Shown here: positions 40,448 through 64,000 of the stretch, piece after piece
How positions within the stretch are numbered: the stretch's first letter is position 1
Layout: each line of letters starts with the position of its first letter
Assembly: GCA_947625375.1 (NCBI GenBank)
Contig: CANQOC010000005.1
Span: 45,630-109,629 of the forward strand
DNA from: an uncultured Clostridia bacterium
GTDB lineage: Bacteria; Bacillota; Clostridia; Oscillospirales; Ruminococcaceae
Reading direction: 5' to 3'
DNA length: 64,000 nt
Made by a program: the position numbers and the translations under genes
The notes under the pieces: model-generated
Told to the model about the DNA's origin: nothing
Seen by the model: the letters and a program-made list of their open reading frames with translations, nothing else
The model's database searches: none

Positions 40448-40708
40448 TCAGTCTCCCGAGCCGACCGGGCCGTTATATCCGCACCAGTCGCAGACAAGGC
40501 TGTTTCCGCCGTCGTACAGATAGATATACGACCCGCCGGACTTCTTGCACATCGGGCAGCAGGGCGCCGGGCGCGTCTTCTGCTCCGCGCCGTCGGATTT
40601 TTTCAGCATCGCGCCGACGCTCTTAATCACGTCGCCGACAATTCCGCCCCCGACAGCTCCCGAGAGCTCGCCGTCTTTAAGCTCGCAATCCTCTTTTCTG
40701 TTGGACAT
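40448..40708 (-). CDS. Array A member A10: double-glycine-leader peptide with zinc-ribbon-like core
   Basis: Leader ...ELKDGELSGAVGG. Core GIVGDVIKSVGAMLKK, a linker, then CCPMCKK...CDWCGYNGP. Confidence 0.75.
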   Translation of the reverse strand: MSNRKEDCELKDGELSGAVGGGIVGDVIKSVGAMLKKSDGAEQKTRPAPCCPMCKKSGGSYIYLYDGGNSLVCDWCGYNGPVGSGD

Positions 40709-40751
40709 TCCGTCAGCCTCCTTTCGTCCTCGGCCGGTCGGCCTTGGGTTA

Positions 40752-41069
40752 TCATCTCATCGTGACAAAGCCGAATTCGTCTTTTCCGATAGAGTCAGGC
40801 TTCGGGGGTTCTTTTTCCTCATGCTTTGGGCGGAACATGGACAGCCAAAAGTCTCCGCACGCTTCCAAAAAATCGTCAAGGATTTCAATTCCTCCGGCGG
40901 CGCCTTCGATTTCCTCGTCAGAAATCTCTCCGCTCCTCGCGTTTATCTTAGAGAAAAACTTCTCGGCGTCTTCCGGCGCGAGGTCCTTGCCGTTTTCCTT
41001 TGCAAGCTCGATAAGCTCGCCGGCGGACTTTGCCGCCCTTGCCCTTTTAATGAATTCTTCTTGTGTCAT
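40752..41069 (-). CDS. Array A member A9: Nif11-type-leader precursor
   Basis: Leader MTQEEFIKRARAAKSAGELIELAKENG...SGEISDEEIEGAAGG. 45-aa core IEILDDFLEACGDFWLSMFRPKHEEKEPPKPDS... Confidence 0.8.
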   Translation of the reverse strand: MTQEEFIKRARAAKSAGELIELAKENGKDLAPEDAEKFFSKINARSGEISDEEIEGAAGGIEILDDFLEACGDFWLSMFRPKHEEKEPPKPDSIGKDEFGFVTMR

Positions 41070-41092
41070 AATATTATCTCCTTTCGGTATTT

Positions 41093-41410
41093 TTATCTCA
41101 TCGTGACAAAGCCGAATTCGTCTTTTCCGATAGAGTCGGGCTTCGGGGGTTCTTTTTCCTCATGCTTTGGGCGGAACATGGACAGCCAAAAGTCTCCGCA
41201 CGCTTCCAAAAAATCGTCAAGGATTTCAATTCCTCCGGCGGCGCCTTCGATTTCCTCGTCAGAAATCTCTCCGCTCCTCGCGTTTATCTTGGAGAAAAGC
41301 TTCTCGGCGTCTTCCAACGCGAGGTTATTGCCGTTTTCCTTTGCAAGCTCGATAAGCTCGCCGGCGGACTTTGCCGCCTTTAATGTTTTAATAATTTCTT
41401 CGTTAGCCAT
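41093..41410 (-). CDS. Array A member A8: Nif11-type-leader precursor (paralog of A9, identical core)
   Basis: The C-terminal two thirds are identical in protein to A9, while the N-terminal leader is diverged. 341-bp tandem duplication. Confidence 0.8.
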   Translation of the reverse strand: MANEEIIKTLKAAKSAGELIELAKENGNNLALEDAEKLFSKINARSGEISDEEIEGAAGGIEILDDFLEACGDFWLSMFRPKHEEKEPPKPDSIGKDEFGFVTMR

Positions 41411-41458
41411 AATAATATCCTCCTGTAAATAAGTATCGGCTTTACTGTCCGAAGATTC

Positions 41459-41782
41459 TCAGTTCTTAATGATAACCTTCTTATTACGCGGATCCAACAG
41501 CTGGCAGAGCAGCATATCGGGTTCATGACCCAGATGTCTGCAGGTTCCGCAGCACCCCTGAAGAATAACCTTGGCTTCGCCGTTGGTAATGCCCTTTTGG
41601 CGCGCGTAAAGGGAAATATTCATTTCGCTCGGAGTGCTGTCGCCCGGCTGATACTGTCCGATAATACACTTGGTGTCAAGCTTAATGACGGGATAGTCGA
41701 GAGAGCCTTCGCCCCCGCCCGCCGCGGCGCTGAGCTTAACGTCGTTAATTTCGCTGTGCTTAATAATCTCTTCATCTGCCAT
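41459..41782 (-). CDS. Array A member A7: short GG-leader precursor with 84-aa core
   Basis: Leader MADEEIIKHSEINDVKLSAAAGG. The core ends ...LQGCCGTCRHLGHEPDMLLCQLL... Confidence 0.72.
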   Translation of the reverse strand: MADEEIIKHSEINDVKLSAAAGGGEGSLDYPVIKLDTKCIIGQYQPGDSTPSEMNISLYARQKGITNGEAKVILQGCCGTCRHLGHEPDMLLCQLLDPRNKKVIIKN

Positions 41783-41823
41783 AATATCGCCTTCTTTCTT
41801 AACGATTAAATTAACCCGGGTTA

Positions 41824-42159
41824 TTAGTTTAGATATAACGGTCCTTCATATCCGCAGTCGTCACAGTAAATCATCTTTGTGCCGTCGGGAGCGTCGTGAA
41901 TAAAAATCCATGCCGACGACGTCTGACCGCAAATCGGGCATTTTTCGGGAGTCCAAGGCGGCGCCGCGGGAGTGGGAGCTTTCGGCTCTTTCTGCTTTTT
42001 CGGCTTAGAGTCCTTTCCACCGTAAAACAAACCGCCGATAGATTCCTTGACCCAGTCAACTACTCCCCCGCCGGCGACATTGTCGAGATTGTCGTCCGAG
42101 ATTTCGTGCGGCTCGGCGGCCTCGATTTTTTCTTCTTTTTTGATTTCCTTTTCAGACAT
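41824..42159 (-). CDS. Array A member A6: GG-leader peptide with zinc-ribbon-like core
   Basis: Leader ...HEISDDNLDNVAGG. Core GVVDWVKESIGG, a Lys/Pro-rich linker, then CPICGQ...CDDCGYEGP. Confidence 0.75.
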   Translation of the reverse strand: MSEKEIKKEEKIEAAEPHEISDDNLDNVAGGGVVDWVKESIGGLFYGGKDSKPKKQKEPKAPTPAAPPWTPEKCPICGQTSSAWIFIHDAPDGTKMIYCDDCGYEGPLYLN

Positions 42160-42205
42160 AATATTATCTCCTTTAAATAAATTTCGTCAGTCGGATATGC
42201 GGTCA

Positions 42206-42451
42206 TCAGACCGAGGACAAGGGCCCCTCATATCCGCACAGCAAGCATTTAATCATAACCGTGCCGTCATCGGCCGCGGTGCCGAAAACAAAAACATTGT
42301 CCACAGGCTTATGGCAAAAGGGGCAGAGGTCGGGTTCCTTCGGCTTCTCCCAAGGATAATGCAAATCCGCCTTAATCCAATCATCGATTGCTCCCCCTCC
42401 CGACGCCTTTTCGAGAGCGCCGTCCGAGAGCTCGCTGTTAAGCCTTTTCAT
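42206..42451 (-). CDS. Array A member A5: GG-leader peptide with zinc-ribbon-like core
   Basis: The ATG at 42451 follows SD aaggagga. Leader MKRLNSELSDGALEKASGG. Core GAIDDWIKADL...CPFCHK...CLLCGYEGP. Confidence 0.75.
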   Translation of the reverse strand: MKRLNSELSDGALEKASGGGAIDDWIKADLHYPWEKPKEPDLCPFCHKPVDNVFVFGTAADDGTVMIKCLLCGYEGPLSSV

Positions 42452-42474
42452 TGCAGCTCCTCCTTCGCGGGTCA

Positions 42475-42657
42475 TCAAAGCCTGCACATGCCGTTGCCGC
42501 AATATTGTCTGCAGTTGTCACAGGACTTATCTTTACTGCCATACTTCCCATTAAAAAGGTCGCAGTAATGCTCGGGCGGGCAGTCGTGACCCCCGTCGAC
42601 CCCGACGCTCTTTCCGCCGGTAACCTTCTCGGTTTCAATGTCTTTAGATTCTTTCAT
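42475..42657 (-). CDS. Array A member A4: bacteriocin-type GG-leader, 6-Cys core
   Basis: MKESKDIETEKVTGG then KSVGVDGGHDCPPEHYC...SCDNCRQYCGNGMCRL. Confidence 0.8.
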   Translation of the reverse strand: MKESKDIETEKVTGGKSVGVDGGHDCPPEHYCDLFNGKYGSKDKSCDNCRQYCGNGMCRL

Positions 42658-42682
42658 TGTAAAGTCCCCTTTCTTCAGTCAA

Positions 42683-42868
42683 TCAAAGTCTGCACCTGTT
42701 GTTGCCGGAATACGCCTGACAGTTGTCACAGGACGTATCCTTCTTCCACTTATCCTTCGCGCAAAATCCTCCGCAGGTATGCGCGGGCGGGCAGTCGTGA
42801 CCCCCGTCGACTCCGACGCTCTTTCCGCCGGTTGCTTCCTCAATCTCGAAATCATTAAGCTCTTTCAT
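42683..42868 (-). CDS. Array A member A3: bacteriocin-type GG-leader, 6-Cys core
   Basis: MKELNDFEIEEATGG then KSVGVDGGHDCPPAHTCGGFC...SCDNCQAYSGNNRCRL. Confidence 0.8.
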   Translation of the reverse strand: MKELNDFEIEEATGGKSVGVDGGHDCPPAHTCGGFCAKDKWKKDTSCDNCQAYSGNNRCRL

Positions 42869-42891
42869 TGTAAATCCTCCTTAAAATAATG

Positions 42892-43110
42892 TTATCGTGC
42901 ATGGTTGCACAGGTCTTTTCCGTCGTTGTTTTTTCCGCAATGGTGACGGCAGTTGTAACAGGAATCCGGGTCTCCCGGAAGTCTTCCGCTGCCCTCTTTC
43001 TCGTGATAATACTTGCATATCTTGCTTTCGGGACAGGTCCAATAGCCGTAGACGTTGACGGTTCTTCCGCCGGTGACTTCCTCAATCTCGAAATCATTAA
43101 GCTCTTTCAT
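42892..43110 (-). CDS. Array A member A2: bacteriocin-type GG-leader, 6-Cys core
   Basis: MKELNDFEIEEVTGG then RTVNVYGYWTCPESKIC...GDPDSCYNCRHHCGKNNDGKDLC. Confidence 0.8.
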   Translation of the reverse strand: MKELNDFEIEEVTGGRTVNVYGYWTCPESKICKYYHEKEGSGRLPGDPDSCYNCRHHCGKNNDGKDLCNHAR

Positions 43111-43127
43111 TGTAATTCCTCCTTAAA

Positions 43128-43355
43128 TTACGGTTCCCACCAAGCTAATGTGCACAGGTTTTCTCCCTTTTGATTATATCCGCAGAAGAAGCGGCAGTAG
43201 ATGCAGGAATCAGGGTCTCCCGGCTGTTTGACCATGCCATCCTTAAATAAATAATGCTTACACATACGGCTTTCGGGACCAACCCAATAACCTATCGGGT
43301 TGACACTTCTTCCTCCGGCGGCCGTCTCGAGTTCCTTGTCGTTAATTTCTTTCAT
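43128..43355 (-). CDS. Array A member A1: bacteriocin-type GG-leader, 5-Cys core
   Basis: MKEINDKELETAAGG then RSVNPIGYWVGPESRMC...GDPDSCIYCRFFCGYNQKGENLC. Confidence 0.8.
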   Translation of the reverse strand: MKEINDKELETAAGGRSVNPIGYWVGPESRMCKHYLFKDGMVKQPGDPDSCIYCRFFCGYNQKGENLCTLAWWEP

Positions 43356-43405
43356 TGTAATTTCTCCTTTCAGCGATTTAGCTCGCGTTGTTTTCTTGTA
43401 CTTCC

Positions 43406-43469
43406 ATTATACCACTATTTTTTGATTTTGGCGTGTCGTTTACGTCACATTTCGTGTCGTTTACGTCAC
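43406..43469 (-). promoter_or_regulatory. Array A promoter: two phased 16-bp direct repeats plus an extended -10
   Basis: On the minus strand: GTGACGTAAACGACAC, gaaat, GTGACGTAAACGACAC, 21 nt, TGgTATAAT. The -35 is weak (ACGCCA). Confidence 0.7.
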
Positions 43470-52449: not shown

Positions 52450-52513
52450 TTGACGCAGATGACACCTTTTTCCCGCAAACGACAAGGCACAGAGGGAAAA
52501 GATGTGATATAAT
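52450..52513 (+). promoter_or_regulatory. Array B promoter: degenerate copies of the array A direct repeat plus an extended -10
   Basis: TTGACGCAGATGACAC (12/16 match to GTGACGTAAACGACAC), about 20 bp on TTCCCGCAAACGACAA (11/16), then 22 nt to TGaTATAAT (52505-52513). Confidence 0.6.
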
Positions 52514-52557: not shown

Positions 52558-52989
52558 ATGAACGAAATCATTAAAAAAGCAAGAGCGGCAAAGTCGGCCG
52601 GAGAGCTCATCGAGCTTGCGAAAGCCAACGGCAAGGACCTCACCAAAGAACAGGCCGAGATGTTCTTCAAAAGCCTCAGCCAAGGCGGCGAGATATCCGA
52701 CGAGGAGCTTTCGAGCGCGGTCGGCGGGTGCGGCGGTTCGGAAATATCCTGGGAGAAGAGCCTCGGCTTCTCGAGAATCGATTGCCGAAAGGGCGACTTC
52801 GTCGGGGGACACACCTTTGCGGCGAAGACGTATTGGAAGTGCGCCATCTGCGGGGGACACATCTACTGCGACGGTCCTTTGACCGCATACACCAACTGCA
52901 CCCACCTCAAGCAGCATAAGGTCCTCGGCTGTAACAACTGCTTTTTCAACGAGAACGGAAAATGCAACTACTATGACGACAGCCTTTGA
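52558..52989 (+). CDS. Array B member B1: Nif11-type-leader precursor, 86-aa 9-Cys core
   Basis: Leader MNEIIKKARAAKSAGELIELAKANG...GEISDEELSSAVGG. The core starts CGGSE, contains WKCAIC and ends GCNNCFFNENGKCNYYDDSL. Confidence 0.8.
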   Translation: MNEIIKKARAAKSAGELIELAKANGKDLTKEQAEMFFKSLSQGGEISDEELSSAVGGCGGSEISWEKSLGFSRIDCRKGDFVGGHTFAAKTYWKCAICGGHIYCDGPLTAYTNCTHLKQHKVLGCNNCFFNENGKCNYYDDSL

Positions 52990-53019
52990 TTAAGGGCAGG
53001 GTTCTGAGGAGGTATTATC

Positions 53020-53445
53020 ATGAACGAGGAAATTTTAGCAAAGGCAAAGGCGGCAGGTTCGCCGGAGGAGCTTTTAAAGCTTGCTCACGAAAACGGCATG
53101 TCCTACTTTACCGAGGAGAACGCGAACGCTTATTTCAACGTCCTGCACCAGAGCGGCGAGATTACGGACGAAGAGCTTGAAAAAGCGGCGGGAGGCTGCA
53201 AGAGCAACAAGAGGCGTGTCGTTACGCTCGGATACATCTGCCCCGTAAACTACGGAGGCTGGAAGTGCAAGGACTGCCTTGCGCCGAACAACGTCTGCAA
53301 GTGCTGGCTACAGCCGCCGGAGCTTTCGCGCAAGTTCCACGCGTCAATCTTCGCGTGGTGCGCCGATACATGCAGCACCTGCGCGTGGTGTTCATATGAA
53401 AGCGGCATATGGTACTGCAACAACCCCGAAGCAAACGAACTGTAA
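53020..53445 (+). CDS. Array B member B2: Nif11-type-leader precursor, 82-aa 11-Cys core
   Basis: Leader ...AAGSPEELLKLAHENG...SGEITDEELEKAAGG. The core starts CKSNK, contains WKCKDC and CSTCAWCSYESGIWYCNNP. Confidence 0.8.
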   Translation: MNEEILAKAKAAGSPEELLKLAHENGMSYFTEENANAYFNVLHQSGEITDEELEKAAGGCKSNKRRVVTLGYICPVNYGGWKCKDCLAPNNVCKCWLQPPELSRKFHASIFAWCADTCSTCAWCSYESGIWYCNNPEANEL

Positions 53446-53465
53446 TCCCGAAGGGAGAATTTAAC

Positions 53466-53891
53466 ATGTTTAACGAAGAAATGATTAAAAAAATCCGCGG
53501 ACTCGGCTCGCCCGAGGAGCTTATTGAGTTCGGAAAGGAAAACGGCGTCGCAATCAGCAAGGAGACGGCGGAGAAGTATTTTAACTCGCTTCACGGCAGC
53601 GGCGAAATCTCGGACGAGGAGCTTGAGAACACCGCCGGCGGCTGCGGCGGAGGCTATTCGCCGTCGATATATAAGCAATGCCCCGAATGCGGGACAAATA
53701 TCGCGATGAAGGACTTCCGCGACGTCAAGGTTATCGTCAGCGACGAGGTTCTCCACCAGTGGGGATATCCGACCGGCGTATGCCCGAAATGCAACGTCCG
53801 CTATGCTTATGTCCGCGCGCTGAATATGCTCTATCCCGTATCGGTTGACGAAAAGGGCACTTGGGTCATAAGACCGCCGCACAGATATTAA
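53466..53891 (+). CDS. Array B member B3: Nif11-type-leader precursor, 82-aa core with two CxxC pairs
   Basis: The ATG at 53466 follows SD aagggaga. Leader ...SGEISDEELENTAGG. Core CGGGYSPSIYKQCPEC...GVCPKC. Confidence 0.8.
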   Translation: MFNEEMIKKIRGLGSPEELIEFGKENGVAISKETAEKYFNSLHGSGEISDEELENTAGGCGGGYSPSIYKQCPECGTNIAMKDFRDVKVIVSDEVLHQWGYPTGVCPKCNVRYAYVRALNMLYPVSVDEKGTWVIRPPHRY

Positions 53892-53903
53892 AGGAGCTTT
53901 ATC

Positions 53904-54398
53904 ATGAACGACGAAATTTTAGCAAAGGCAAAGGCGGCGGGGTCGCCGGAGGAGCTTTTGAAGCTGGCTCACGAAAACGGCATGTCCTACTTTACCGAGG
54001 AGAACGCAAGGGCGTATTACAGCCTTATGCACCAAAGCGGTGAGATATCCGACGAGGAGCTTGAAAACGCGGCGGGAGGCTGTCGGAAGGGCGGGTATAG
54101 GGTTGTCTCGCGCGGAAATGTATGCGGCTTGGGGCAGTCGGTGGCAATCAACGGCTTCTATGCGTTCACTGAGTGGAAATGCAAGACCTGTAAAGAAATG
54201 CCGGGAGCCGGACTTAGCTTTGAAGACTGGTATAATGTTCACAGGTCATGCAGCTGCAACCGCAGCATATTAGACTCTGTTGCATTTTCGCTCGGCGTAT
54301 CCGTCAACTTCGGGGCGGTCGGAGTCTGCGGCTCCTGCGATTGGTGCAATTACGTCGACGGCGTTTGGATTTGCACAAACCCGCGTGATGCCGAGTGA
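53904..54398 (+). CDS. Array B member B4: Nif11-type-leader precursor, 105-aa 10-Cys core
   Basis: The leader is nearly identical to that of B2. The core starts CRKGG, contains WKCKTC and CGSCDWCNYVDGVWICTNP. Confidence 0.8.
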   Translation: MNDEILAKAKAAGSPEELLKLAHENGMSYFTEENARAYYSLMHQSGEISDEELENAAGGCRKGGYRVVSRGNVCGLGQSVAINGFYAFTEWKCKTCKEMPGAGLSFEDWYNVHRSCSCNRSILDSVAFSLGVSVNFGAVGVCGSCDWCNYVDGVWICTNPRDAE

Positions 54399-54415: not shown

Positions 54416-54547
54416 ATGAAAGAAGAAATCATTAAAAACGGCGAGATTTCAGACGACGAGCGTGAAAGCGCGGTCGGCGTCCTCGACTACAGGCGCTTCT
54501 CGGAGGTGCAGATTATCGAGGTCTATCACGCATACGGCGGCTTCTGA
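54416..54547 (+). CDS. Array B member B5: 43-aa ORF with a collapsed or decayed leader (remnant or possible signalling peptide)
   Basis: Not in the ORF track. MKEEIIKNGEISDDERESAVGVLDYRRFSEVQIIEVYHAYGGF. Retains the leader ends (EEIIK and GEISDDE..SAVG) but has GV in place of GG. Weak SD. Confidence 0.4.
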   Translation: MKEEIIKNGEISDDERESAVGVLDYRRFSEVQIIEVYHAYGGF

Positions 54548-54660: not shown

Positions 54661-54852
54661 ATGAAGATGGCAGATTCAAAGTACACAAGCGTGAGATACT
54701 GTCCTCATCTCGGGCACAACGTGATTATCGAGCAAAGGATTCGCGGCGGGGTTATTTGTCTCGAGTGCCTCAACCGTGCGGACTGCGGGTATTCGGAGGA
54801 AGGCTGCCGGAATAGACTGATAGAGGATAGACGGTTAGAGGATAGAAGTTAG
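54661..54852 (+). CDS. Small leaderless Cys-rich protein (63 aa)
   Basis: SD aaagggag lies upstream of the ATG at 54661. MKMADSKYTSVRYCPHLGHNVIIEQRIRGGVICLECLNRADCGYSEEGC... The last ~10 codons and the stop lie in a purine tract. Confidence 0.5.
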   Translation: MKMADSKYTSVRYCPHLGHNVIIEQRIRGGVICLECLNRADCGYSEEGCRNRLIEDRRLEDRS

Positions 54853-57755: not shown

Positions 57756-58127
57756 ATGTCTAAAATCACTATTTTGGTCGTCGAGCCCAGCAAAAAGCCC
57801 TATGTCAAAGAAATCGAAAACACCCTTAAATCACTTCAACATGAAGTCGAAGGTTACATTCAAGCCGTCTATCCTTGGAAGGAGCCAGCAGCTCTGATTT
57901 GCGACGAAGAATCAAAGCTAAAGAATAAGCCTTTCAACCGAGCAATGAGAGATGAGGACGGCAAAATCTACGATTATATCTCCGGCACTTTCCTGATCAC
58001 CGGTCTCGGCGAGGAAGACTTTGCTTCGCTGTCGCCGGAGCTGGTTACTCACTTCTCCGACCTATTCTCCGTTTCCGAAATGCTCGTCAGCATCGACGGG
58101 AAGCTGACCGTCCTGCCGATGAATTAA
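57756..58127 (+). CDS. DUF3846-domain protein
   Basis: ITILVVEPSKKPYVKEIENTLKSLQHEVEGYIQAVYP...ALICDEESKLKNKPFN, the pattern typical of DUF3846 found on Firmicutes mobile elements. Confidence 0.7.
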   Translation: MSKITILVVEPSKKPYVKEIENTLKSLQHEVEGYIQAVYPWKEPAALICDEESKLKNKPFNRAMRDEDGKIYDYISGTFLITGLGEEDFASLSPELVTHFSDLFSVSEMLVSIDGKLTVLPMN

Positions 58128-58168
58128 GAAGGCAGATTCAGTCCCACCTTCTATATAAGAGGAGAGAC

Positions 58169-60088
58169 TTAATTTTGAAAGTACTCCGATACCGCCTTAA
58201 CAAACTCATCTTTGGTAAGAGGCTGCTTGCCGGATTTACCGCTTACGGGCGCCTGTGACTGCCCCTGCGCAGGCGCAGCAGTTTCAGTCGAATTTTCGGA
58301 AAGCATTTCAGGATTAAGGTCAAAGAGAGTCATCTGACCTGAGTCTTCATTCTTTTCCTTCTTCTGTGTAGCCATGAAGTTCTTAACATATTCCTGATAA
58401 ATCTCAAGCTGCGTTTTCGGATTGCTGACTTCGGCAAACGACTTCACGCCGGACGCCGTAATTGCAAAATCAAGCAGAGAAAGCTGACCATCGTCCACAG
58501 TAGCCGATACACCTACGGACTCCGAAGGCTCAACAGCAGCCTTATCGAGATCACGATAACGGAAGATATCACTGCTCTTGATTTCATCTACAATTTCTCT
58601 GTAATGGTCATGTGCAACAATGTCAAGAGAGTCCAAGTCCTCATTGCCCGTCTGTTCTCCAAATGGGAGCCTCAAGCCGCGGCCAATAGTCTGCATAGCA
58701 AGAATTTCGCTTTTTGCCGCATTAAGCGGGATAATCGTAAAGAGGTTATTGACATCCCAGCCTTCCTTCAGCTTATAAACGTGCAAAACAATCTCAATCG
58801 GGTTGGAAGAACTCTCTATAGAGAGCAAAAGACGGATATTCTCTTCTGATTCTTCACCAGTCTGTTTTGAATGGATTTCTATAACCTTGCCCTTATACTT
58901 GCCGTTTTGGAAGTCATCGCTGTCGATAAGCACACGTATTTTCTTTGCATGGTCTGTATCTTTGCAGGCAATAAGAACAATCGGTTTCACATAGCCGAGA
59001 TCATTCTCATTGCAATAGTCTCCTTTTTCATCACAAAGTAACAGTACCGGGAAGAGAAGTTTTGAGGAATCGCAGAAGGCTCCTATAAACAGGATTCCGT
59101 GCGATCCGAGAACTTTTTCTCCCCAATTATCAACTTTCCAGTAGTGAAGTCCGCCGTCAACTTCCAGCTCATCAAATGCACTCCAGTATTCCACGTCGTG
59201 CAGGTACCTTGCAATGTCAGCCTTAGTCGCTTCGAGTGCCTGTTCCTTTGCACCGCTGCTTTCGGTGAGCAGAATGGAGCGGAGTTCTCTTGCTTTCTTG
59301 TCCCGATTTGCGTTCAGTTTGCGATCCAGCTTGTCAAAGGCTTTCTTAAACTCCGCTGTGGTGTTGCAGGTCTGGTAGTCCTGACCTTCGATGTAGCGTT
59401 TGATAAATACCTTTTCGCTTCCGAAAATACGCTGGTCAATAAATGATACCAGTCCGTGAAGATCTGTCAGCGAATTCTGAAGAGGTGTAGCAGTCAGCAA
59501 AATCTTCGGTATGCCCTTGGATAGTTCATACAGATTCTTTGCACGTTTCGTTCCGTGAAATACGTTTCTTAGGTTGTGCGCCTCATCGATAATGATGAAA
59601 TCCCACTTCACCTCCGGGAACCGTTTCATCAACTTTGATGAGTAGTCGTAGGTGGTAATGACAATTCTGACAGAATTATTGTCAGTAAGTCTCTTACGCC
59701 AGTCTGAACTATCTTTTTCTACTGTAATCCTGTCAAGTATCACTGACTCCAAATTGAACTTATCCTCAAGTTCCAGTTCCCACTGTTTTCTCAATGATGC
59801 CGGGAGTGCAATCAAGACACGCTTTGCGCCGGACTCAAGAACATATTTCAGTACAAGTCCGGCTTCGATGGTCTTTCCGAGTCCTACCTCATCGGCAAGT
59901 ACGATACCACCTGTTTTCAACGCTTGGATAGCAGCGCAGAAGGCATTTATCTGATGAGGATTCAATTCAATGTTCGCGTCCAAAAGGAAGTGGAACGGAG
60001 ATGCCTCAAGTTCCAGCTTTTTATATCTGCTGAATTGCTCAAGGAGCAGGTTACCTTCCATCTGTATCTCCTTTATACAGTTGCTCAA
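58169..60088 (-). CDS. Superfamily-2 helicase: SNF2-like N-terminal lobe, type III Res-like C-terminal lobe, no nuclease domain
   Basis: Motif I ADEVGLGKT, II IIIDEAHNL, III LLTATPLQN, then KLKEGWDVNNLFTIIPL...QTIGRGLRLPFG. The start (60088 or 60061) overlaps the MTase stop. Confidence 0.8.
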   Translation of the reverse strand: MSNCIKEIQMEGNLLLEQFSRYKKLELEASPFHFLLDANIELNPHQINAFCAAIQALKTGGIVLADEVGLGKTIEAGLVLKYVLESGAKRVLIALPASLRKQWELELEDKFNLESVILDRITVEKDSSDWRKRLTDNNSVRIVITTYDYSSKLMKRFPEVKWDFIIIDEAHNLRNVFHGTKRAKNLYELSKGIPKILLTATPLQNSLTDLHGLVSFIDQRIFGSEKVFIKRYIEGQDYQTCNTTAEFKKAFDKLDRKLNANRDKKARELRSILLTESSGAKEQALEATKADIARYLHDVEYWSAFDELEVDGGLHYWKVDNWGEKVLGSHGILFIGAFCDSSKLLFPVLLLCDEKGDYCNENDLGYVKPIVLIACKDTDHAKKIRVLIDSDDFQNGKYKGKVIEIHSKQTGEESEENIRLLLSIESSSNPIEIVLHVYKLKEGWDVNNLFTIIPLNAAKSEILAMQTIGRGLRLPFGEQTGNEDLDSLDIVAHDHYREIVDEIKSSDIFRYRDLDKAAVEPSESVGVSATVDDGQLSLLDFAITASGVKSFAEVSNPKTQLEIYQEYVKNFMATQKKEKNEDSGQMTLFDLNPEMLSENSTETAAPAQGQSQAPVSGKSGKQPLTKDEFVKAVSEYFQN

Positions 60089-61337
60089 AAATACCCATTG
60101 CTATCCCTTTGGCCATCATCGGAGGCACAGCATTTCCAATCTGAACAAATTGAGATGTGCGTGGTCCCTCAAAGAAATAGCTGTCCGGGAAGGACTGTAT
60201 TCTTGCTGCCTCGCGGACGGTAATTGATCTATTCTGTTCAATATCAGGATGAATGAAATAATGACCATCCTTTGAAAGGTGTGCCAGAATGGTATGGCAA
60301 CACGATTCATCACCTTCGACAACTTTGAACCTATCCGTGAACGAATGTCTGTTTTTATGCGTCTTCAATTCATCCGGGAGATTGTTGTAGTTGAGGCGTT
60401 TATGACCATCATTCCACAGTTCAACCGCTCTCCTGTAAATCTTGATATCCCGATCTATATTCGGTCGGCAATTATGGTGAGTCAGAACATCATCTTTCGT
60501 CCGTATTCCATATTCCGTGACATAACTGCTTGCTTTTGATTTAGCATATTTATCGGAGCTCTCGCCTGGATGCAGTTTAGGCAGATCAACAAAGAGATCA
60601 TTGACTATAGCGCCCGTTTTGATTTCAAGAAAATCGGGATACTTTAGACCGCTTTTCTTTAGCCACCCCACGATAATCATTCGGCGCCTGTTTTGGAGAA
60701 CGCCGAACGTGTGTGCGTTCTGCTCCCGACATTCAATTTCGTAACCCACTCGTTTTAAGTATTTCTGAATGTTCTTCCAAGTAGCTCCGCCGTTGGCCGA
60801 TTCAATACCCGTGACATTCTCGAAAACGAACATACGAGGCTGATAGCGTTTTAGGAAACGTGCGTACAGTTTGTATAAGTAGTTACGAGGGTCTTCTGCC
60901 ATTGGCACTTCCATGTGGCTGCTTTGCGCTCTGCCCACTAAGGAGTAAGCTTGGCAAGGAGGGCCTCCAACAATAACATCAATCTTAGTGATGCCTCGAA
61001 TTTTCATTATCCCATCAATGGTCTTGAAAATTGCCGGGAGCGTCTCGTCTGACATCGTTTCATTGATGATGGTTTTTGTTATGGAAGCAGGTATCTGCTT
61101 CATAAAATCGTCGCGGGAGATTTTCCCCAACACGTATTTTTTATATAAGCCGAGATTGTCAGTGCCTTTCAAATAATAATAGGCACTTCTCGTTTCAAGC
61201 GTTTTTGCTGCAAACTTATTCATTTCAACATGAGCTACAGGTTTGAACCCAGCCTGAAGAAACCCTTCTGAAAGACCACCTGCTCCTGCAAAAAGGTCAA
61301 TGAAATTGTAGCTATATTGCGCATCTATCTTTGGCAT
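60051..61337 (-). CDS. dcm: DNA (cytosine-5)-methyltransferase
   Basis: Motif I DLFAGAGGLSEGF, IV GGPPCQAYS, VI FVFENV, X QIGNAVPP. Confidence 0.93.
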   Translation of the reverse strand: MPKIDAQYSYNFIDLFAGAGGLSEGFLQAGFKPVAHVEMNKFAAKTLETRSAYYYLKGTDNLGLYKKYVLGKISRDDFMKQIPASITKTIINETMSDETLPAIFKTIDGIMKIRGITKIDVIVGGPPCQAYSLVGRAQSSHMEVPMAEDPRNYLYKLYARFLKRYQPRMFVFENVTGIESANGGATWKNIQKYLKRVGYEIECREQNAHTFGVLQNRRRMIIVGWLKKSGLKYPDFLEIKTGAIVNDLFVDLPKLHPGESSDKYAKSKASSYVTEYGIRTKDDVLTHHNCRPNIDRDIKIYRRAVELWNDGHKRLNYNNLPDELKTHKNRHSFTDRFKVVEGDESCCHTILAHLSKDGHYFIHPDIEQNRSITVREAARIQSFPDSYFFEGPRTSQFVQIGNAVPPMMAKGIAMGIFEQLYKGDTDGR

Positions 61338-61361
61338 ATAGTTTCCTCGTCACTCTTCGTT

Positions 61362-61619
61362 TTAATCGGAAGGCTCTTGTTCTTCCACACTGTTCTTGTC
61401 CGATTTCATTGGCGCCGAATCTGGGACGAATTCCATAATGTCAGCAACATCGCATTTTAGTTCCTGACAGATTTTTGAAAGAACCTCTGTGGTTACATTC
61501 TCATCTTTGGTGAGCTTAGCGAGTGAAGAAGAGCTGATACCTGCTTTTTTTCGCAGATCAGACTTTTTCATCTGCTTATCAATCAGTAACTTCCACAGCT
61601 TGTTATAACTCATCTTCAT
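61362..61619 (-). CDS. XRE-family HTH regulator (controller-protein-like, upstream of the MTase)
   Basis: 85 aa. HTH MKKSDLRKKAGISSSSLAKLTKDENVTTEVLSKICQEL. Confidence 0.85.
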   Translation of the reverse strand: MKMSYNKLWKLLIDKQMKKSDLRKKAGISSSSLAKLTKDENVTTEVLSKICQELKCDVADIMEFVPDSAPMKSDKNSVEEQEPSD

Positions 61620-62070
61620 TTTGTTTTATTCCTCCGTGTCCCATTGTCTTCAATATAGTTTACGATTATTTGTTGGCAGTTTCAATTATTTTATTATAAT
61701 GACATCAGTGCTGGAAAAGAAGCTACATTGAGACGTAAAATACGTTAAATTTATTATAGCATAAAAGTGTCCGTTTGTCAAATCAATCGTTCGCGTTGTG
61801 GATATTTTTCGGTCATTAAGGATGTATTTATGGCGATACCCCAATTATACACCAATCCGGCAGTTGACGCATTAGTTTACATTGATAAATAATCACCGGT
61901 AAATGTATAAAGTGCAACGGCAGCAAGTCCGATAAAATTTAGTCCCTTACTTATCCCGCAAAATATCCAAAAAACTGTTTACAAAACGGAAAAAGTGTGG
62001 TAAAATATACATAGGTCATATCAGCCGATTAAAGCGGCGGGTGACACTATTTTTGAGAAAAGGTGATTTT

Positions 62071-62451
62071 ATGGATTTCAAAACCGCGGTCACAAGCGTA
62101 CTGAAGACCAACTACGCCAACTTTAACGGAAGGGCAAGGCGCAGCGAATACTGGTACTACACCCTGTTTACCATCATCGTCGAGCTCGTCCTCACCGTCA
62201 TTCAGAAGCTGACGTCGGGCGTACCCGTTGTCGGCCTGATTGTGAACATTCTCATCGTGATAATCGGCCTTGCGCTCTTCATTCCCGGCCTCGCCCTCTG
62301 TTTCAGAAGGCTTCACGACACCGGCCGCAGCGGCATCTGGATTCTTATCGGACTGATTCCGCTCATCGGCGAGATTATTCTCATCGTCTTCTTCGTCCAG
62401 GACAGCCAGCCCGGCGACAACAAATACGGCGCCAACCCCAAAGGGGTATGA
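62071..62451 (+). CDS. DUF805-family inner-membrane protein
   Basis: GRARRSEYWYYTLF signature, TM helices and RRLHDTGRSGIW. The ATG at 62071 follows SD aaaggtga. Confidence 0.88.
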   Translation: MDFKTAVTSVLKTNYANFNGRARRSEYWYYTLFTIIVELVLTVIQKLTSGVPVVGLIVNILIVIIGLALFIPGLALCFRRLHDTGRSGIWILIGLIPLIGEIILIVFFVQDSQPGDNKYGANPKGV

Positions 62452-62498
62452 CGGAAAGCGCTCCGAGAGGAGCGCCCCGATAAAACAGATATGTTTTC

Positions 62499-62532
62499 CG
62501 AACCGATGTATCACTGCATCGGTTCGTTTTTT
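62499..62532 (+). terminator. DUF805 gene terminator
   Basis: 10-bp stem cgaaccgatg / catcggttcg followed by tttttt. Confidence 0.8.
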
Positions 62533-62762
62533 ATGACGGCGAAAGCGTATACATAAGCATTATTTCCTCCTACGCGCGGCGTGAGCGGTGATGCCCGAAA
62601 AAGGCATAAAAAGCGTCACAAGCGATACAAAGCTTGCGACAGGGGTCCCCGCAAAGCGAAGCTTTGTGGGGAAAAAGCCGGAGCGACGGAGCGAGTGAGA
62701 GGCGGCATTGAGTGCGTAAGCATGAAAATGCCGTCGCGAACGATACGAAGTCCGCGACGGCT

Positions 62763-62818
62763 TGGCGGAGAGGAAGGGATTCGAACCCTTGTGCCTTTTG
62801 GGCAAACGGTTTTCAAGA
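62763..62818 (-). pseudogene. Truncated tRNA-Ser(UGA) 3' fragment: putative att site of an integrated element
   Basis: The reverse complement CTTGAAAACCGTTTGCCCAAAAGGCACAAGGGTTCGAATCCCTTCCTCTCCGCCA covers the anticodon loop, long variable arm, T-arm, acceptor 3' strand and CCA. No matching 5' acceptor or D-arm is found upstream. Confidence 0.7.
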
Positions 62819-63070
62819 CTTTTCGGTTATTCGGAAGTTAAAGTAAGTTGACCGAAATCAGTTTAAGATAAGCAACCCGTAAAACCGCTTGTATAAGCGC
62901 TTTGCAAGGTCTGATTATCCGAAAAGCCTTTAAAATCGGGCGTTTGCAAGGTCGGCTCGAAAACAGCATTTTGGGGGAGAAAAATGCACGTTGGAGAGAA
63001 AAAGGAGAGAAAACAGGAGAGAAAAGTGATAACCTTGCCATGCTGATTTTAACGATAGGAGTTATCACTT

Positions 63071-63673
63071 ATGAGAGAAAATAAAAGGCTTTTCAATCAG
63101 CTCCGTTCTGAATATCCCAACGGACTGTCTAAGGAGCAATTTTACAAAATCGCGCATATCAGCAAGGCTACCGCCCGTTATCTTCTTCAAAGCGGCAAGG
63201 TTCCGTGCAAGGACACCGGCAAGAAAACGCGCTGCTATCTAATACAAGTCGAAGATGTGATTTTTTATCTGCAAGACCGCGAGGCACACCCGGACAAATA
63301 TTTGGCGATTGACGGTTGGTATTCCGCAAACTCTAAAGTTCGGAAAGACTTTATATCATACCGTCAAGAGCTTCGCAGGATCAGCAAGAAACAGGTCAAG
63401 AAGCTCAAAGAGCATATCGAAACTCAGACAGACGAAGTCGGCGACCTGCTGAACATCAAAATAATCAGCAAGGTCACCGGATACAGCTGCTCTTCAATTT
63501 GCAGATGGTGCGAAAGCGGGAGACTCCGCTCCTTCAGAATCTCAGGGGCATATAATGTACCGAAAGAATGGCTCGTTGAGTTTTTGATTTCGGAATACGC
63601 GAGCGAGATAGTGAGAAAGTCAAAGCGGCATCTTGAAATGATAAGGGAGTTTTTGGCGAAAGAAAACTGCTGA
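63071..63673 (+). CDS. Helix-turn-helix (excisionase-family-like) DNA-binding protein
   Basis: Two HTH-like segments (YKIAHISKATARYLLQSGKVPC; SKVTGYSCSSICRWCESGRLRSFRISGAYNVPKEWLVEFL). Confidence 0.55.
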   Translation: MRENKRLFNQLRSEYPNGLSKEQFYKIAHISKATARYLLQSGKVPCKDTGKKTRCYLIQVEDVIFYLQDREAHPDKYLAIDGWYSANSKVRKDFISYRQELRRISKKQVKKLKEHIETQTDEVGDLLNIKIISKVTGYSCSSICRWCESGRLRSFRISGAYNVPKEWLVEFLISEYASEIVRKSKRHLEMIREFLAKENC

Positions 63674-63836
63674 AATCGGACAGGATTTTGTCAATGATGA
63701 TACTGTAATCTAACAAAAAATCAAGACACGTGCCACAAATAGCCTTGACAAGTTCAGAAAAATGTGATATAATAACCCCGCTTACGATTGTATCGCGCAC
63801 GGATGTTTATATATTTCATTTGGAGGCTTTTCAATA

Positions 63837-64000
63837 TGGCAAATGACAGAACAAGTAGATTTAAAATCGGGGACATTGTAGTCTTAACACACTCCACATG
63901 TGGATTGCTTGAAAATATGAAAGTGGTTGTCAAAAAAGCTACGAAGGATAACGATGAAAAAATTGAAGTTGAGACATTTTGCGGACCTGAAGTTGAGGCA
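63837..64000 (+). CDS. Hypothetical protein, N-terminal part (3' end outside window)
   Basis: SD ggagg lies 8 nt upstream of the ATG. MANDRTSRFKIGDIVVLTHSTCGLLENMKVVVKK... is open to the window end. Confidence 0.4.

What the first reader, a model, noticed from the sequence alone, without database searches (positions are those of the whole stretch)
52558..54398. B1, B2 and B4 cores are homologous: a shared WKCxxC motif and a C-terminal CxxCxxC...G-x-W-x-C-x-NP block
B1, B2 and B4 have YWKCAIC, GWKCKDC and EWKCKTC in the first half of the core. B2 and B4 end with CSTCAWCSYESGIWYCNNP and CGSCDWCNYVDGVWICTNP, while B1 ends with the related GCNNCFFNENGKCNYY. B3 instead has two CxxC pairs (CPEC...CPKC). 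The B2 and B4 leaders are almost identical although their cores differ in length by 23 aa. That combination points to leader conservation with core diversification. The CxxCxxC spacing resembles ferredoxin-type cluster ligands, and NC-x-H/NC-x6-8-C stretches are faintly reminiscent of DUF1540, but neither can be verified by eye.
Basis: partly seen in the sequence, partly recalled or inferred. Interest (0 to 1): 0.6.

Follow-up and report, generated by a model that had tools for sequence, protein, structure and literature searches.

The report
Cysteine-rich cores on Nif11 export leaders
Four tandem genes in a rabbit-gut Clostridia genome join a cleave-and-export leader to small cysteine-rich mini-proteins; two of them (B2, B4) belong to one rare new family that in related genomes lies next to a radical-SAM enzyme, while B1 belongs to a separate family that shares only a short zinc-knuckle-like motif.

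Summary
The motifs are present at the stated coordinates. B2 and B4 cores are truly homologous: shuffle z = 11.8, and a profile scores them at E 1e-26 to 1e-30. B1 is not demonstrably homologous. A profile built without B1 misses it at E<10, and HHalign gives 39% probability over 15 columns. B1 shares only the W-K-C-x-x-C knuckle, which is not chance (joint p about 1e-8), and belongs to a separate family (WxCxxC…CxH…LxCxNC…C).

The B2/B4 family is very rare. It gave 9 clusters among 1.84 billion representatives, all carrying a roughly 60-aa leader. It occurs in 8 of 61 related genomes, with up to 18 copies.

In six of those genomes the arrays lie next to one radical-SAM/SPASM enzyme. In this genome that enzyme, the only C39 exporter (NHLM type) and every peptide array share one LytTR-type promoter.

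No DUF1540, ferredoxin or zinc-ribbon Pfam hit was found, and the CxxCxxC third Cys is not conserved. Between strains the cores stay 95-99% identical while the leaders are swapped by recombination.

Most likely these are exported, probably rSAM-modified, zinc-ribbon-like mini-proteins. The chemistry and the metal are untested.

The parts
52454..52513 (+). Activator-type promoter of array B. Two units, CGCAGATGACA (52454-52464) and CGCAAACGACA (52474-52484), followed by an extended -10 TGATATAAT (52505-52513).
   Evidence: alignment with the array A promoter; ten such sites in the genome, each with a TATAAT-like -10 hexamer (TATAAT or TACAAT) at a similar distance. Four of them were not used to write the pattern.
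52558..52989 (+). B1: a 57-aa Nif11-type GG leader plus an 86-aa core (52729-52986). It belongs to the B1-type family: WxCxxC...CxH...LxCxNC...C.
   Evidence: TIGR03798 E 0.012; family alignment A5; not in the B2/B4 family; AF2 pLDDT 59.
53020..53445 (+). B2: a 59-aa Nif11-type GG leader plus an 82-aa core (53197-53442). It is the founding member of the B2/B4-type family.
   Evidence: TIGR03798 E 2.3e-5; E 2.5e-30; AF2 pLDDT 86.6, pTM 0.71; no PDB fold match.
53466..53891 (+). B3: a 59-aa leader plus an 82-aa core with N-terminal Cys and a classical CPxC...CPxC zinc-ribbon pattern. It is unrelated in sequence to B1, B2 and B4.
   Evidence: weak zinc-ribbon Pfam hits; no core similarity; orthologs in G015 and G026 arrays beside the rSAM.
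53904..54398 (+). B4: a 59-aa leader plus a 105-aa core (54081-54395). It is B2/B4-type, with a 13-aa and a 10-aa insertion relative to B2.
   Evidence: E 6.7e-6; z 11.8 against B2; E 3.7e-26; alignment A4.
54417..54547 (+). B5: a 43-codon remnant of a short-leader precursor, with GV where GG is expected. An intact GG-plus-Cys-rich-core version exists in another strain (L050:548-889).
40448..43469 (-). Array A: further GG-leader precursor genes with other core types. It is driven by the same promoter type (repeat units begin near 43465 and read on the minus strand).

Best explanation
B1-B4 are one co-transcribed array of precursor genes. Each joins a Nif11-type double-glycine leader to an 82-105-aa cysteine-rich core that begins with Cys directly after Gly-Gly.

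B2 and B4, together with two paralogs on contig C3, form one family. Its pattern is GG|C-x3-6-G-[RK]-x-V-[TS]-x3-4-C ... W-x-C-x-x-C ... C-x-C ... C-x-x-C-x-[WYF]-(C)-x-[YF]-x-x-G-x-W-x-C-[NT]-N. About eight Cys are conserved, and the fold is confidently predicted, compact and without an analogue in the PDB.

B1 belongs to a second family built from the same kind of parts: W-x-C-x-x-C ... C-x-H ... L-x-C-x-N-C ... C. B3 is a plain zinc ribbon.

Shown here:
- The families and their narrow, patchy distribution.
- The shared promoter.
- The genome's single C39/NHLM exporter.
- The physical adjacency of these arrays to one RRE-like radical-SAM/SPASM enzyme in related genomes.

Inferred:
- A LytTR-type regulator switches on all arrays, the exporter and the rSAM together.
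- The rSAM binds the leader and installs one or a few Cys-derived crosslinks.
- The PCAT cuts after Gly-Gly and exports the core.
- The released mini-protein is held together by two tetrahedral Cys/His sites (most likely zinc) and/or thioethers.
- The product acts outside the cell in competition or signalling.
For: Leaders:
- TIGR03798 aligns up to the GG in all four leaders.

Exporter:
- There is a single C39 gene in the genome. Together with its neighbours it matches the NHLM trio: TIGR03796 at 4.8e-136, TIGR03797 at 7e-68 and TIGR03794 at 1.7e-10.
- A histidine kinase and a LytTR-type regulator lie next to it. This is read from the sequence and was not scanned.

Promoter:
- Ten promoter sites were found. 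They precede every array, the exporter operon and the rSAM gene.

rSAM enzyme:
- It has Radical_SAM and SPASM domains plus a 90-aa N-terminal extension.

Co-occurrence in 61 related genomes:
- The core family occurs in 8 and the rSAM ortholog in 9; 7 have both.
- The arrays are adjacent to the rSAM or in one operon with it in G015, G023, G026, G029, G030, G040 and in L013.
- G041 holds a compact cluster: precursors, rSAM, HlyD-like protein, PCAT.

Core features:
- 67 of 72 Nif11-length leaders are followed by Cys, against 0 of 21 short leaders.
- In the B1 family the CxH His is present in 12 of 13 members and is Cys in the 13th, as expected of a metal ligand.
- AF2 model of the B2 core: pLDDT 86.6, pTM 0.71.

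Precedents:
- An rSAM/SPASM enzyme installs thioethers on a Cys-rich protein, CrpA/CrpC (PMC13692751).
- PCAT1 is described as processing and exporting both peptides and proteins (PMC6959990).
Against: - In this genome the rSAM is on another contig (C14), not beside array B.
- G025 keeps an intact B4-type gene without a detectable rSAM in a 99%-complete assembly.
- The confident AF2 fold suggests the core can fold without modification.
- No Pfam zinc-ribbon model hits the B1, B2 or B4 cores.
- I could not read model coordinates, so the grouping of Cys into two sites is inferred from sequence only.
- The leaders score below the TIGR03798 cut-off.
- The rSAM fits no named maturase family (best 109 bits against cut-offs of 231-874), so its chemistry is unknown.
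- There is no expression, mass or metal data.
Confidence: 0.6

Rival explanations
1. Unmodified cargo. The cores are exported by the PCAT as self-folding mini-proteins, like class II bacteriocins or other PCAT polypeptide cargo. They would be stabilised by zinc or disulfides, and the radical-SAM enzyme would serve only other peptides, such as the short-leader ones or the B3-like zinc ribbons.
For: - There is no maturase in the window.
- G025 has an intact B4-type gene but no rSAM ortholog.
- AF2 predicts the B2 core confidently from 14 sequences.
- The genes immediately next to the rSAM in G015, G026, G029 and G041 are B3-like zinc ribbons rather than B2/B4-type.
Against: - B2/B4-type genes lie in the same operon directly upstream of the rSAM in G023, G040 and L013.
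- Co-occurrence is 7 of 8.
- The rSAM gene carries the same promoter as array B.
Confidence: 0.25
2. All three cores (B1, B2, B4) are one divergent homologous family, and B1 has simply drifted beyond detection.
For: - The shared WKCxxC motif is not chance.
- The order of parts is the same in all three: C1, an early Cys, a W-knuckle, a Cx[C/H], and a C-terminal CxxC...C.
- One B1-type member (G023b_5675) hits the B2/B4 profile at E 1.9e-4 in a set of 100 cores.
- Both types sit in the same arrays.
Against: - The profile built without B1 does not detect B1.
- HHalign gives 38.7% probability over 15 columns.
- Pairwise z-scores are 0.6 and 3.1.
- B1 lacks the N-terminal G-R-x-V-T segment and the G-x-W-x-C-N-N end.
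Confidence: 0.4
3. The cores are Fe-S (ferredoxin-like) or DUF1540-like metal-cluster domains.
For: The CxxCxxC spacing in B2 and B4, and many Cys in an anaerobe (sequence).
Against: - No Fer4 or DUF1540 hit at E<=10 on the cores, or at E<=1 on the full proteins.
- The middle Cys of CxxCxxC is missing in many family members, such as C3_3, P0012, P0013 and G023b_7580.
- There is no CxxxCP element.
Confidence: 0.04
4. They are intracellular Nif11-domain proteins that are never cleaved or exported, for example small regulators with a metal-binding C-terminus.
For: The leaders score below the TIGR03798 cut-off, and there is no exporter in the window.
Against: - GG sits at the same position in all leaders.
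- The genes form tandem arrays with variable content between strains.
- They are co-regulated with the PCAT operon.
- The compact G041 cluster includes the PCAT.
- Short classic GG-leader peptides sit in the same arrays.
Confidence: 0.05

Closest known systems
Nif11/NHLP-leader precursor systems with the NHLM three-gene exporter (TIGR03798 with TIGR03794/03796/03797; Haft and colleagues, recalled from memory), including prochlorosin-type 'many precursors, one enzyme' arrangements
   Same: Long helical leader ending in GG. Many dispersed precursor genes per genome. One exporter with a C39 peptidase. One tailoring enzyme that serves diverse cores.
   Different: The cores here are 80-105-aa folded Cys-rich domains, not 15-30-aa peptides. 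The enzyme is an unnamed rSAM/SPASM, not LanM. The leaders fall below the family cut-off. The host is a gut Clostridia bacterium, and control is by a LytTR-type promoter.
LahA precursors and the LahT C39 domain of Lachnospiraceae bacterium C6A11 (PMC6363468)
   Same: A Firmicutes genome in which several Nif11-like-leader precursors are processed by one PCAT-type double-glycine protease.
   Different: As I recall, the Lah precursors are lanthipeptide-type short cores. No rSAM or Cys4 mini-domain is involved.
CrpA/CrpC of Methanococcus voltae (PMC13692751)
   Same: An RRE-bearing rSAM/SPASM enzyme next to a cysteine-rich protein-sized substrate, on which it installs ranthionine thioether crosslinks.
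   Different: It is archaeal. No Nif11/GG leader or PCAT export was noted. No sequence relation was tested. The chemistry of the enzyme here is unknown.
PCAT1 of Clostridium thermocellum (PMC6959990)
   Same: A C39-ABC transporter that removes a GG secretion signal and exports its cargo; the paper describes PCATs as processing and exporting peptides and proteins.
   Different: As I recall, its cargo CtA is a polypeptide of about 90 aa that is not Cys-rich and has no associated rSAM.
Zinc ribbons and RanBP2-type knuckles (W-x-C-x2-4-C-x3-N-x6-C-x2-C, recalled from memory)
   Same: W-x-C-x-x-C followed a few residues later by a second Cys pair. P0016, a protein with five WKCxxCGRINRNYxGTCACG repeats, matches that part of the core profile.
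   Different: The second pair is C-x-C or C-x-H, not C-x2-C, and the spacing differs. No Pfam zinc-finger model hits the cores. Metal binding is untested.

Membership tests
Nif11-like leader peptide family (TIGR03798 / PF07862) | Score at or above the curated cut-off (32.3 bits for TIGR03798; 23.8 for PF07862) | tested here: not met
   Scores are 15.8 (B1), 24.5 (B2), 23.5 (B3) and 26.3 (B4) bits. The alignments run to the last model position at the GG. PF07862 gives 12-13 bits.
Nif11-like leader peptide family (TIGR03798 / PF07862) | Leader ends in a Gly-Gly cleavage motif followed by a variable core | tested here: met
   AVGG, AAGG, TAGG and AAGG lie at residues 54-57 (B1) or 56-59 (B2-B4).
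Nif11-like leader peptide family (TIGR03798 / PF07862) | The genome encodes the NHLM export trio | tested here: met
   C2:50837-56764 matches TIGR03796, TIGR03797 and TIGR03794. Only the first 400 aa of the two ABC proteins were scanned, so their scores are below the whole-protein cut-offs.
Double-glycine (PCAT) cargo | A C39 peptidase-ABC transporter with the catalytic Cys is present | tested here: met
   PF03412 gives 120.5 bits, and there is a single copy. The 'ECGAASL' motif is visible.
Double-glycine (PCAT) cargo | Cleavage after GG and export | not testable with these tools
   Needs a protease assay or a secretome.
rSAM/SPASM-modified RiPP (sacti-/ranthipeptide-like) | The precursor is encoded next to, or co-regulated with, an rSAM/SPASM maturase | tested here: met
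   Adjacent in G015, G023, G026, G029, G030, G040 and L013. In this genome the gene is not adjacent, but it carries the same promoter type.
rSAM/SPASM-modified RiPP (sacti-/ranthipeptide-like) | The maturase belongs to a characterised family | tested here: not met
   The best NCBIfam score is 109 bits against cut-offs of 231-874. The closest PDB entry is SkfB at E 1e-11, over the core domain only.
rSAM/SPASM-modified RiPP (sacti-/ranthipeptide-like) | Thioether or other crosslink in the product | not testable with these tools
   Needs mass spectrometry.
4Fe-4S ferredoxin-type motif | CxxCxxCxxxCP with all Cys conserved; Fer4 HMM hit | tested here: not met
   No Fer4 hit. The third Cys is only partly conserved (60-90% of 54 members) and there is no CxxxCP.
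DUF1540 | Pfam HMM hit | tested here: not met
   No hit at E<=10 on the cores or at E<=1 on the full proteins.
Zinc ribbon | Two Cys knuckles on beta-hairpins that bind one Zn | tested here: inconclusive
   Knuckle motifs and a C-terminal beta-hairpin (E65-68/E71-74) are seen in the B2 model. The B1 family shows a His/Cys swap. No Pfam hit for B1, B2 or B4, no PDB fold match, and the metal is untested.

The most novel reading that the evidence does not exclude
These gut Clostridia secrete a recombining, co-regulated library of folded, zinc-finger-like mini-proteins. I counted 31 GG-leader genes in this 2-Mb genome. Each would be delivered by a RiPP-type leader and stamped by one radical-SAM enzyme, possibly at the invariant Cys next to the cleavage site. 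The B2/B4 type would be a new two-site, eight-ligand fold with no solved analogue, that is, protein-sized 'RiPPs' whose scaffold is a metal site rather than a macrocycle.
Probability: 0.3. Interest if true: 0.75.

Novelty: new variant of a known kind. Interest (0 to 1): 0.5.

Why it matters
RiPP and bacteriocin biology is built on short peptide cores. Here the same leader, maturase and exporter logic is applied to 80-105-aa cysteine-rich domains that are predicted to fold on their own.

The B2/B4 family is almost private to one genus of rabbit-gut bacteria, yet it is expanded to as many as 18 copies per genome. That pattern points to fast-moving ecological use.

If the radical-SAM enzyme does modify these domains, the system offers an experimentally tractable case of protein-sized substrates for RiPP-type chemistry. 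It would also offer a natural library of small stable scaffolds.

The strain comparison shows that leaders and cores are exchanged as modules. This is relevant to how such libraries evolve and to engineering leader-guided modification.

Tried and rejected
- Pfam and NCBIfam scans of full proteins and of cores alone found nothing beyond sub-threshold Nif11-leader hits. For B3 there were weak zinc-ribbon hits.
- Foldseek of the confident B2 model against the PDB gave a best E of 4.7, which is no match.
- AF2 of the B1 core with 13 family members gave pLDDT 59, too weak for a fold comparison with B2.
- HHalign of the B1 family against the B2/B4 family gave only a 15-column local match.
A single-protein scan then gave 5 loci and the organism names.
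- The class-wide search for the rSAM found only one further genome among 300, so its wider distribution could not be mapped.
- Searches (wrong reference; wrong strand) were wasted.
- One regex for the long C-terminal block was mis-specified, and its zeros mean nothing.
- Cys parity as a test for disulfides was uninformative: there are 5-12 Cys per core, both odd and even.
- Three literature searches found no paper that describes this core family or an rSAM acting on zinc-ribbon precursors.
Full report
**What is there**

The region 52558-54398 holds four tandem plus-strand genes, each with its own GGAGG-type ribosome-binding site:
- B1, 52558-52989
- B2, 53020-53445
- B3, 53466-53891
- B4, 53904-54398

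A 43-codon remnant, B5, follows at 54417-54547. Upstream are two solute-binding lipoprotein genes. Downstream are greA and lysS. No modifying enzyme or exporter lies within about 15 kb.

Every protein starts with a 57-59-aa helical leader. The NCBIfam model TIGR03798 (Nif11-like leader) aligns with it up to its last position at a Gly-Gly. E-values are 1e-2 to 7e-6, all below the curated cut-off. The core begins with Cys immediately after GG in all four.

**Checking the observation**

All quoted motifs are present at the stated places.

WKCxxC is not a chance product of Cys-rich composition. In 200,000 composition-preserving shuffles it occurs in 0.16%, 0.62% and 0.13% of B1, B2 and B4 cores.

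The B2 and B4 cores are clearly related. The local alignment score is 100 against 31.5 ± 5.8 for shuffles, z = 11.8.
- an N-terminal C-x3-5-[RY]-R-V-V-[TS]-x-G-x-x-C segment
- the W-K-C-K-x-C knuckle
- a C-x-C pair
- the C-terminal block

B1 is different.
- Its core gives z = 0.6 against B2 and 3.1 against B4.
- A profile of 14 B2/B4-type cores that excludes B1 finds B2, B4 and two paralogs on contig C3 at E 1e-17 to 1e-30 among all 27,599 ORFs of the genome. It does not report B1 at E<10.
- From arrays in related genomes I collected a 13-member B1-type family. Its pattern is W-x-C-x-x-C ... C-x-H ... L-x-C-x-N-C ... C.
- HHalign of that family against the B2/B4-type family gives 38.7% probability over 15 columns around the knuckle only.

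So B2 and B4 are homologs. B1 shares a module and a general layout, but common descent of the whole core is not shown.

**Conservation beyond the window**

The genome is a 2.04-Mb, 98.6%-complete MAG. Its nearest relatives are 'uncultured Clostridia bacterium, Lapin' rabbit-gut MAGs.

It has two more B2/B4-type genes on contig C3: C3_2, with HWTCDIC ... CDICYYCSYERSAWWCNNT, and C3_3.

Word-based searches of 5.8 billion proteins found only 5 relatives of the B2 core and 3 of the B4 core.

An exhaustive profile search of 1.84 billion cluster representatives found 9 hits at E<1e-3.
- Eight of them are small proteins of 74-163 aa.
- In seven of these the match starts at residue 59-65, that is, after a full-length Nif11-type leader. 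P0011 (111 aa, match from residue 31) has a shorter leader and P0015 (74 aa, match from residue 9) has none.
- The ninth, P0016, matches only the knuckle region through five WKCxxCGRINRNYxGTCACG repeats.

Among 61 related genomes the family occurs in 8: seven of 37 in the genus (this genome included) and one other family of the order. Copy numbers reach 18. On 54 members the conserved positions are V9, C15, W22, C24, C27, C59, C62 and C74, with C34/C36 and the 'third' Cys of CxxCxxC only partly conserved. The family is therefore real, rare and lineage-restricted.

**Context that explains it**

The genome has one C39 peptidase gene. With its neighbours it forms the NHLM export trio (TIGR03796, TIGR03797, TIGR03794). 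A histidine kinase and a LytTR-type regulator lie next to it; I read this from the sequences and did not scan them.

It finds ten sites, each with two 11-bp units about 20-21 bp apart and a TATAAT-like -10 hexamer (TATAAT or TACAAT) at a similar distance. Four of them were not used to write the pattern. The ten sites precede:
- every GG-leader array (A, B, C3, C25, two arrays on C14, and one repeat peptide)
- the exporter operon
- a radical-SAM gene at C14:10256-11698

In all I counted 31 GG-leader genes.

The radical-SAM protein has Radical_SAM and SPASM domains and a 90-aa N-terminal extension. It belongs to no named maturase family. The closest solved structure is SkfB, at E 1e-11 over the core domain.

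**The link between cores and the enzyme**

- Orthologs of this enzyme (62-68% identity within the genus, 41-47% in two other families of the order) occur in 9 of the 61 genomes. Seven of the 8 genomes with the core family have it.
- In G015, G023, G026, G029, G030 and G040, and in metagenome contig L013, the arrays of B2/B4-, B1- and B3-type genes lie directly beside the enzyme gene.
- In G023, G040 and L013 a B2/B4-type gene sits in the same operon just upstream of it.
- G041 has a compact cluster: two Nif11-leader GG|C zinc-ribbon precursors, the rSAM, a third precursor, a HlyD-like protein and the PCAT.
- One counter-example exists. G025 keeps an intact B4-type gene without a detectable rSAM.
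- In a 300-genome sample of the class, the enzyme was found in only one further genome.

**What the cores look like**

AF2 predicts the B2 core with pLDDT 86.6 and pTM 0.71 from 14 sequences. The model has a short N-terminal strand (the VVT segment), a helix and a C-terminal hairpin over SYES-G-IWYC. Foldseek finds no PDB analogue. The B1 model is weak, with pLDDT 59.

The sequence logic suggests two four-ligand sites.
- One is a 'minimal module': an early Cys, often C-P, then C-x-x-C, then a last Cys. The short-leader peptides next to the enzyme also carry it (18 of 21).
- The other is an inserted W-x-C-x-x-C ... C-x-[C/H] knuckle.

In the B1 family the last ligand of the knuckle is His in 12 of 13 members and Cys in the 13th. 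That pattern fits a metal ligand better than a disulfide or thioether. I could not inspect model coordinates, so this grouping is inference.

Cys directly after GG follows 67 of 72 Nif11-length leaders and 0 of 21 short leaders. It therefore travels with the leader type rather than the core type.

**Leader versus core evolution**

Three metagenome contigs carry the same locus from other strains, with the same lipoprotein gene upstream.
- Gene content differs. B4 is replaced by a P0013-type gene in L049. In L050 there are extra B1-type genes, an intact B5 and a different order.
- For the same core, DNA identity is 95-99.6%, while the leader can be only 69-82% identical.
- Synonymous divergence is 0.39-0.44 in such leaders against 0-0.12 in the cores of the same genes. 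pN/pS is similar in the two parts, 0.24 and 0.29.
- P0007 carries a B4 core behind a B2-type leader, and P0001 a B2 core behind a half-B4-type leader.

Leaders are thus shuffled among paralogs by recombination. The B2/B4 leader similarity in this genome is 95% DNA identity over codons 1-34 and 79% after that, which looks like a conversion tract.

**Verdict**

The ferredoxin and DUF1540 leads fail.

The best reading has four parts:
- a LytTR-controlled regulon of Nif11/GG-leader precursors
- zinc-ribbon-like mini-proteins as cores
- probable modification by one unnamed rSAM/SPASM enzyme
- cleavage and export by the NHLM PCAT

This is a new variant of a known kind of system. Earlier notes of this scan describe similar cassettes in other gut and rumen Clostridia, which I treat as leads only. 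Chemistry, metal content and function remain untested.

Noticed in passing
window 54417-54547: A 43-codon ORF (MKEEIIKNGEISDDERESAVGVLDYRRFSEVQIIEVYHAYGGF) looks like a collapsed leader with GV in place of GG. The same 43-aa form is kept in strains L051 and L052. L050 has an intact version with GG and a Cys-rich core (548-889).
   Followed up: partly
window 54661-54852: A small Cys/His-rich ORF (MKMADSKYTSVRYCPHLGHNVIIEQRIRGGVICLECLNRADCGYSEEGC...) lies between array B and greA. It has no leader and no Pfam or NCBIfam hit.
   Followed up: partly
G000 C14:7959-10013 (-) and C14:10256-11698 (+): Eight tandem short-GG-leader peptides, six of them ending DC-[IV]-NC-xx-YD-[YF]-xxxx-KC-[TV]-[NK]-x-x-GIR-[FY], lie divergent from the radical-SAM/SPASM gene. 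The end block resembles the B2/B4 C-terminal block, but the profile E-values are only 0.6-8.
   Followed up: partly
G000 C14:11777-12151 (-): A peptide with two internal copies of a GG-leader-like unit followed by TFT[IF]LSM(N/D)DEQQSK lies behind the same promoter type. It is a possible multi-copy signal-peptide precursor.
   Followed up: no
G000 C14:29504-31358 (+): Seven more short-GG-leader peptides with a CC-x-x-[FY] ... CC-x-x-C-x-Y-[FL] pattern lie behind two further copies of the promoter.
   Followed up: no
G023 contigs C29, C41, C43 (L040-L042): One species of the genus carries 18 matches to the B2/B4-type profile plus many B1-type genes, in arrays of up to 18 consecutive precursor genes.
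   Followed up: partly
P0016 (652 aa, metagenome protein): A protein with five repeats of WKCxxCGRINRNYxGTCACG separated by Pro/Ala/Glu-rich linkers. It is the only non-leader protein that matched the knuckle part of the core profile.
   Followed up: no
window 58169-61337 and 58000-64000: An SNF2-family helicase and a C-5 cytosine DNA methylase lie on the minus strand in a stretch where GC falls from about 55% to 41-46%. This suggests a mobile or defence island.
   Followed up: no
L013:7158-8635 and G000 C2:48270-52288: STAS anti-anti-sigma and HATPase anti-sigma genes lie next to the peptide arrays in L013, where a sigma factor gene is also present (Pfam listing). My reading of the ORFs, not a scan, is that proteins with similar features, plus a SpoIIE-like one, lie beside the exporter genes in this genome. 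This may be a second regulatory layer.
   Followed up: no
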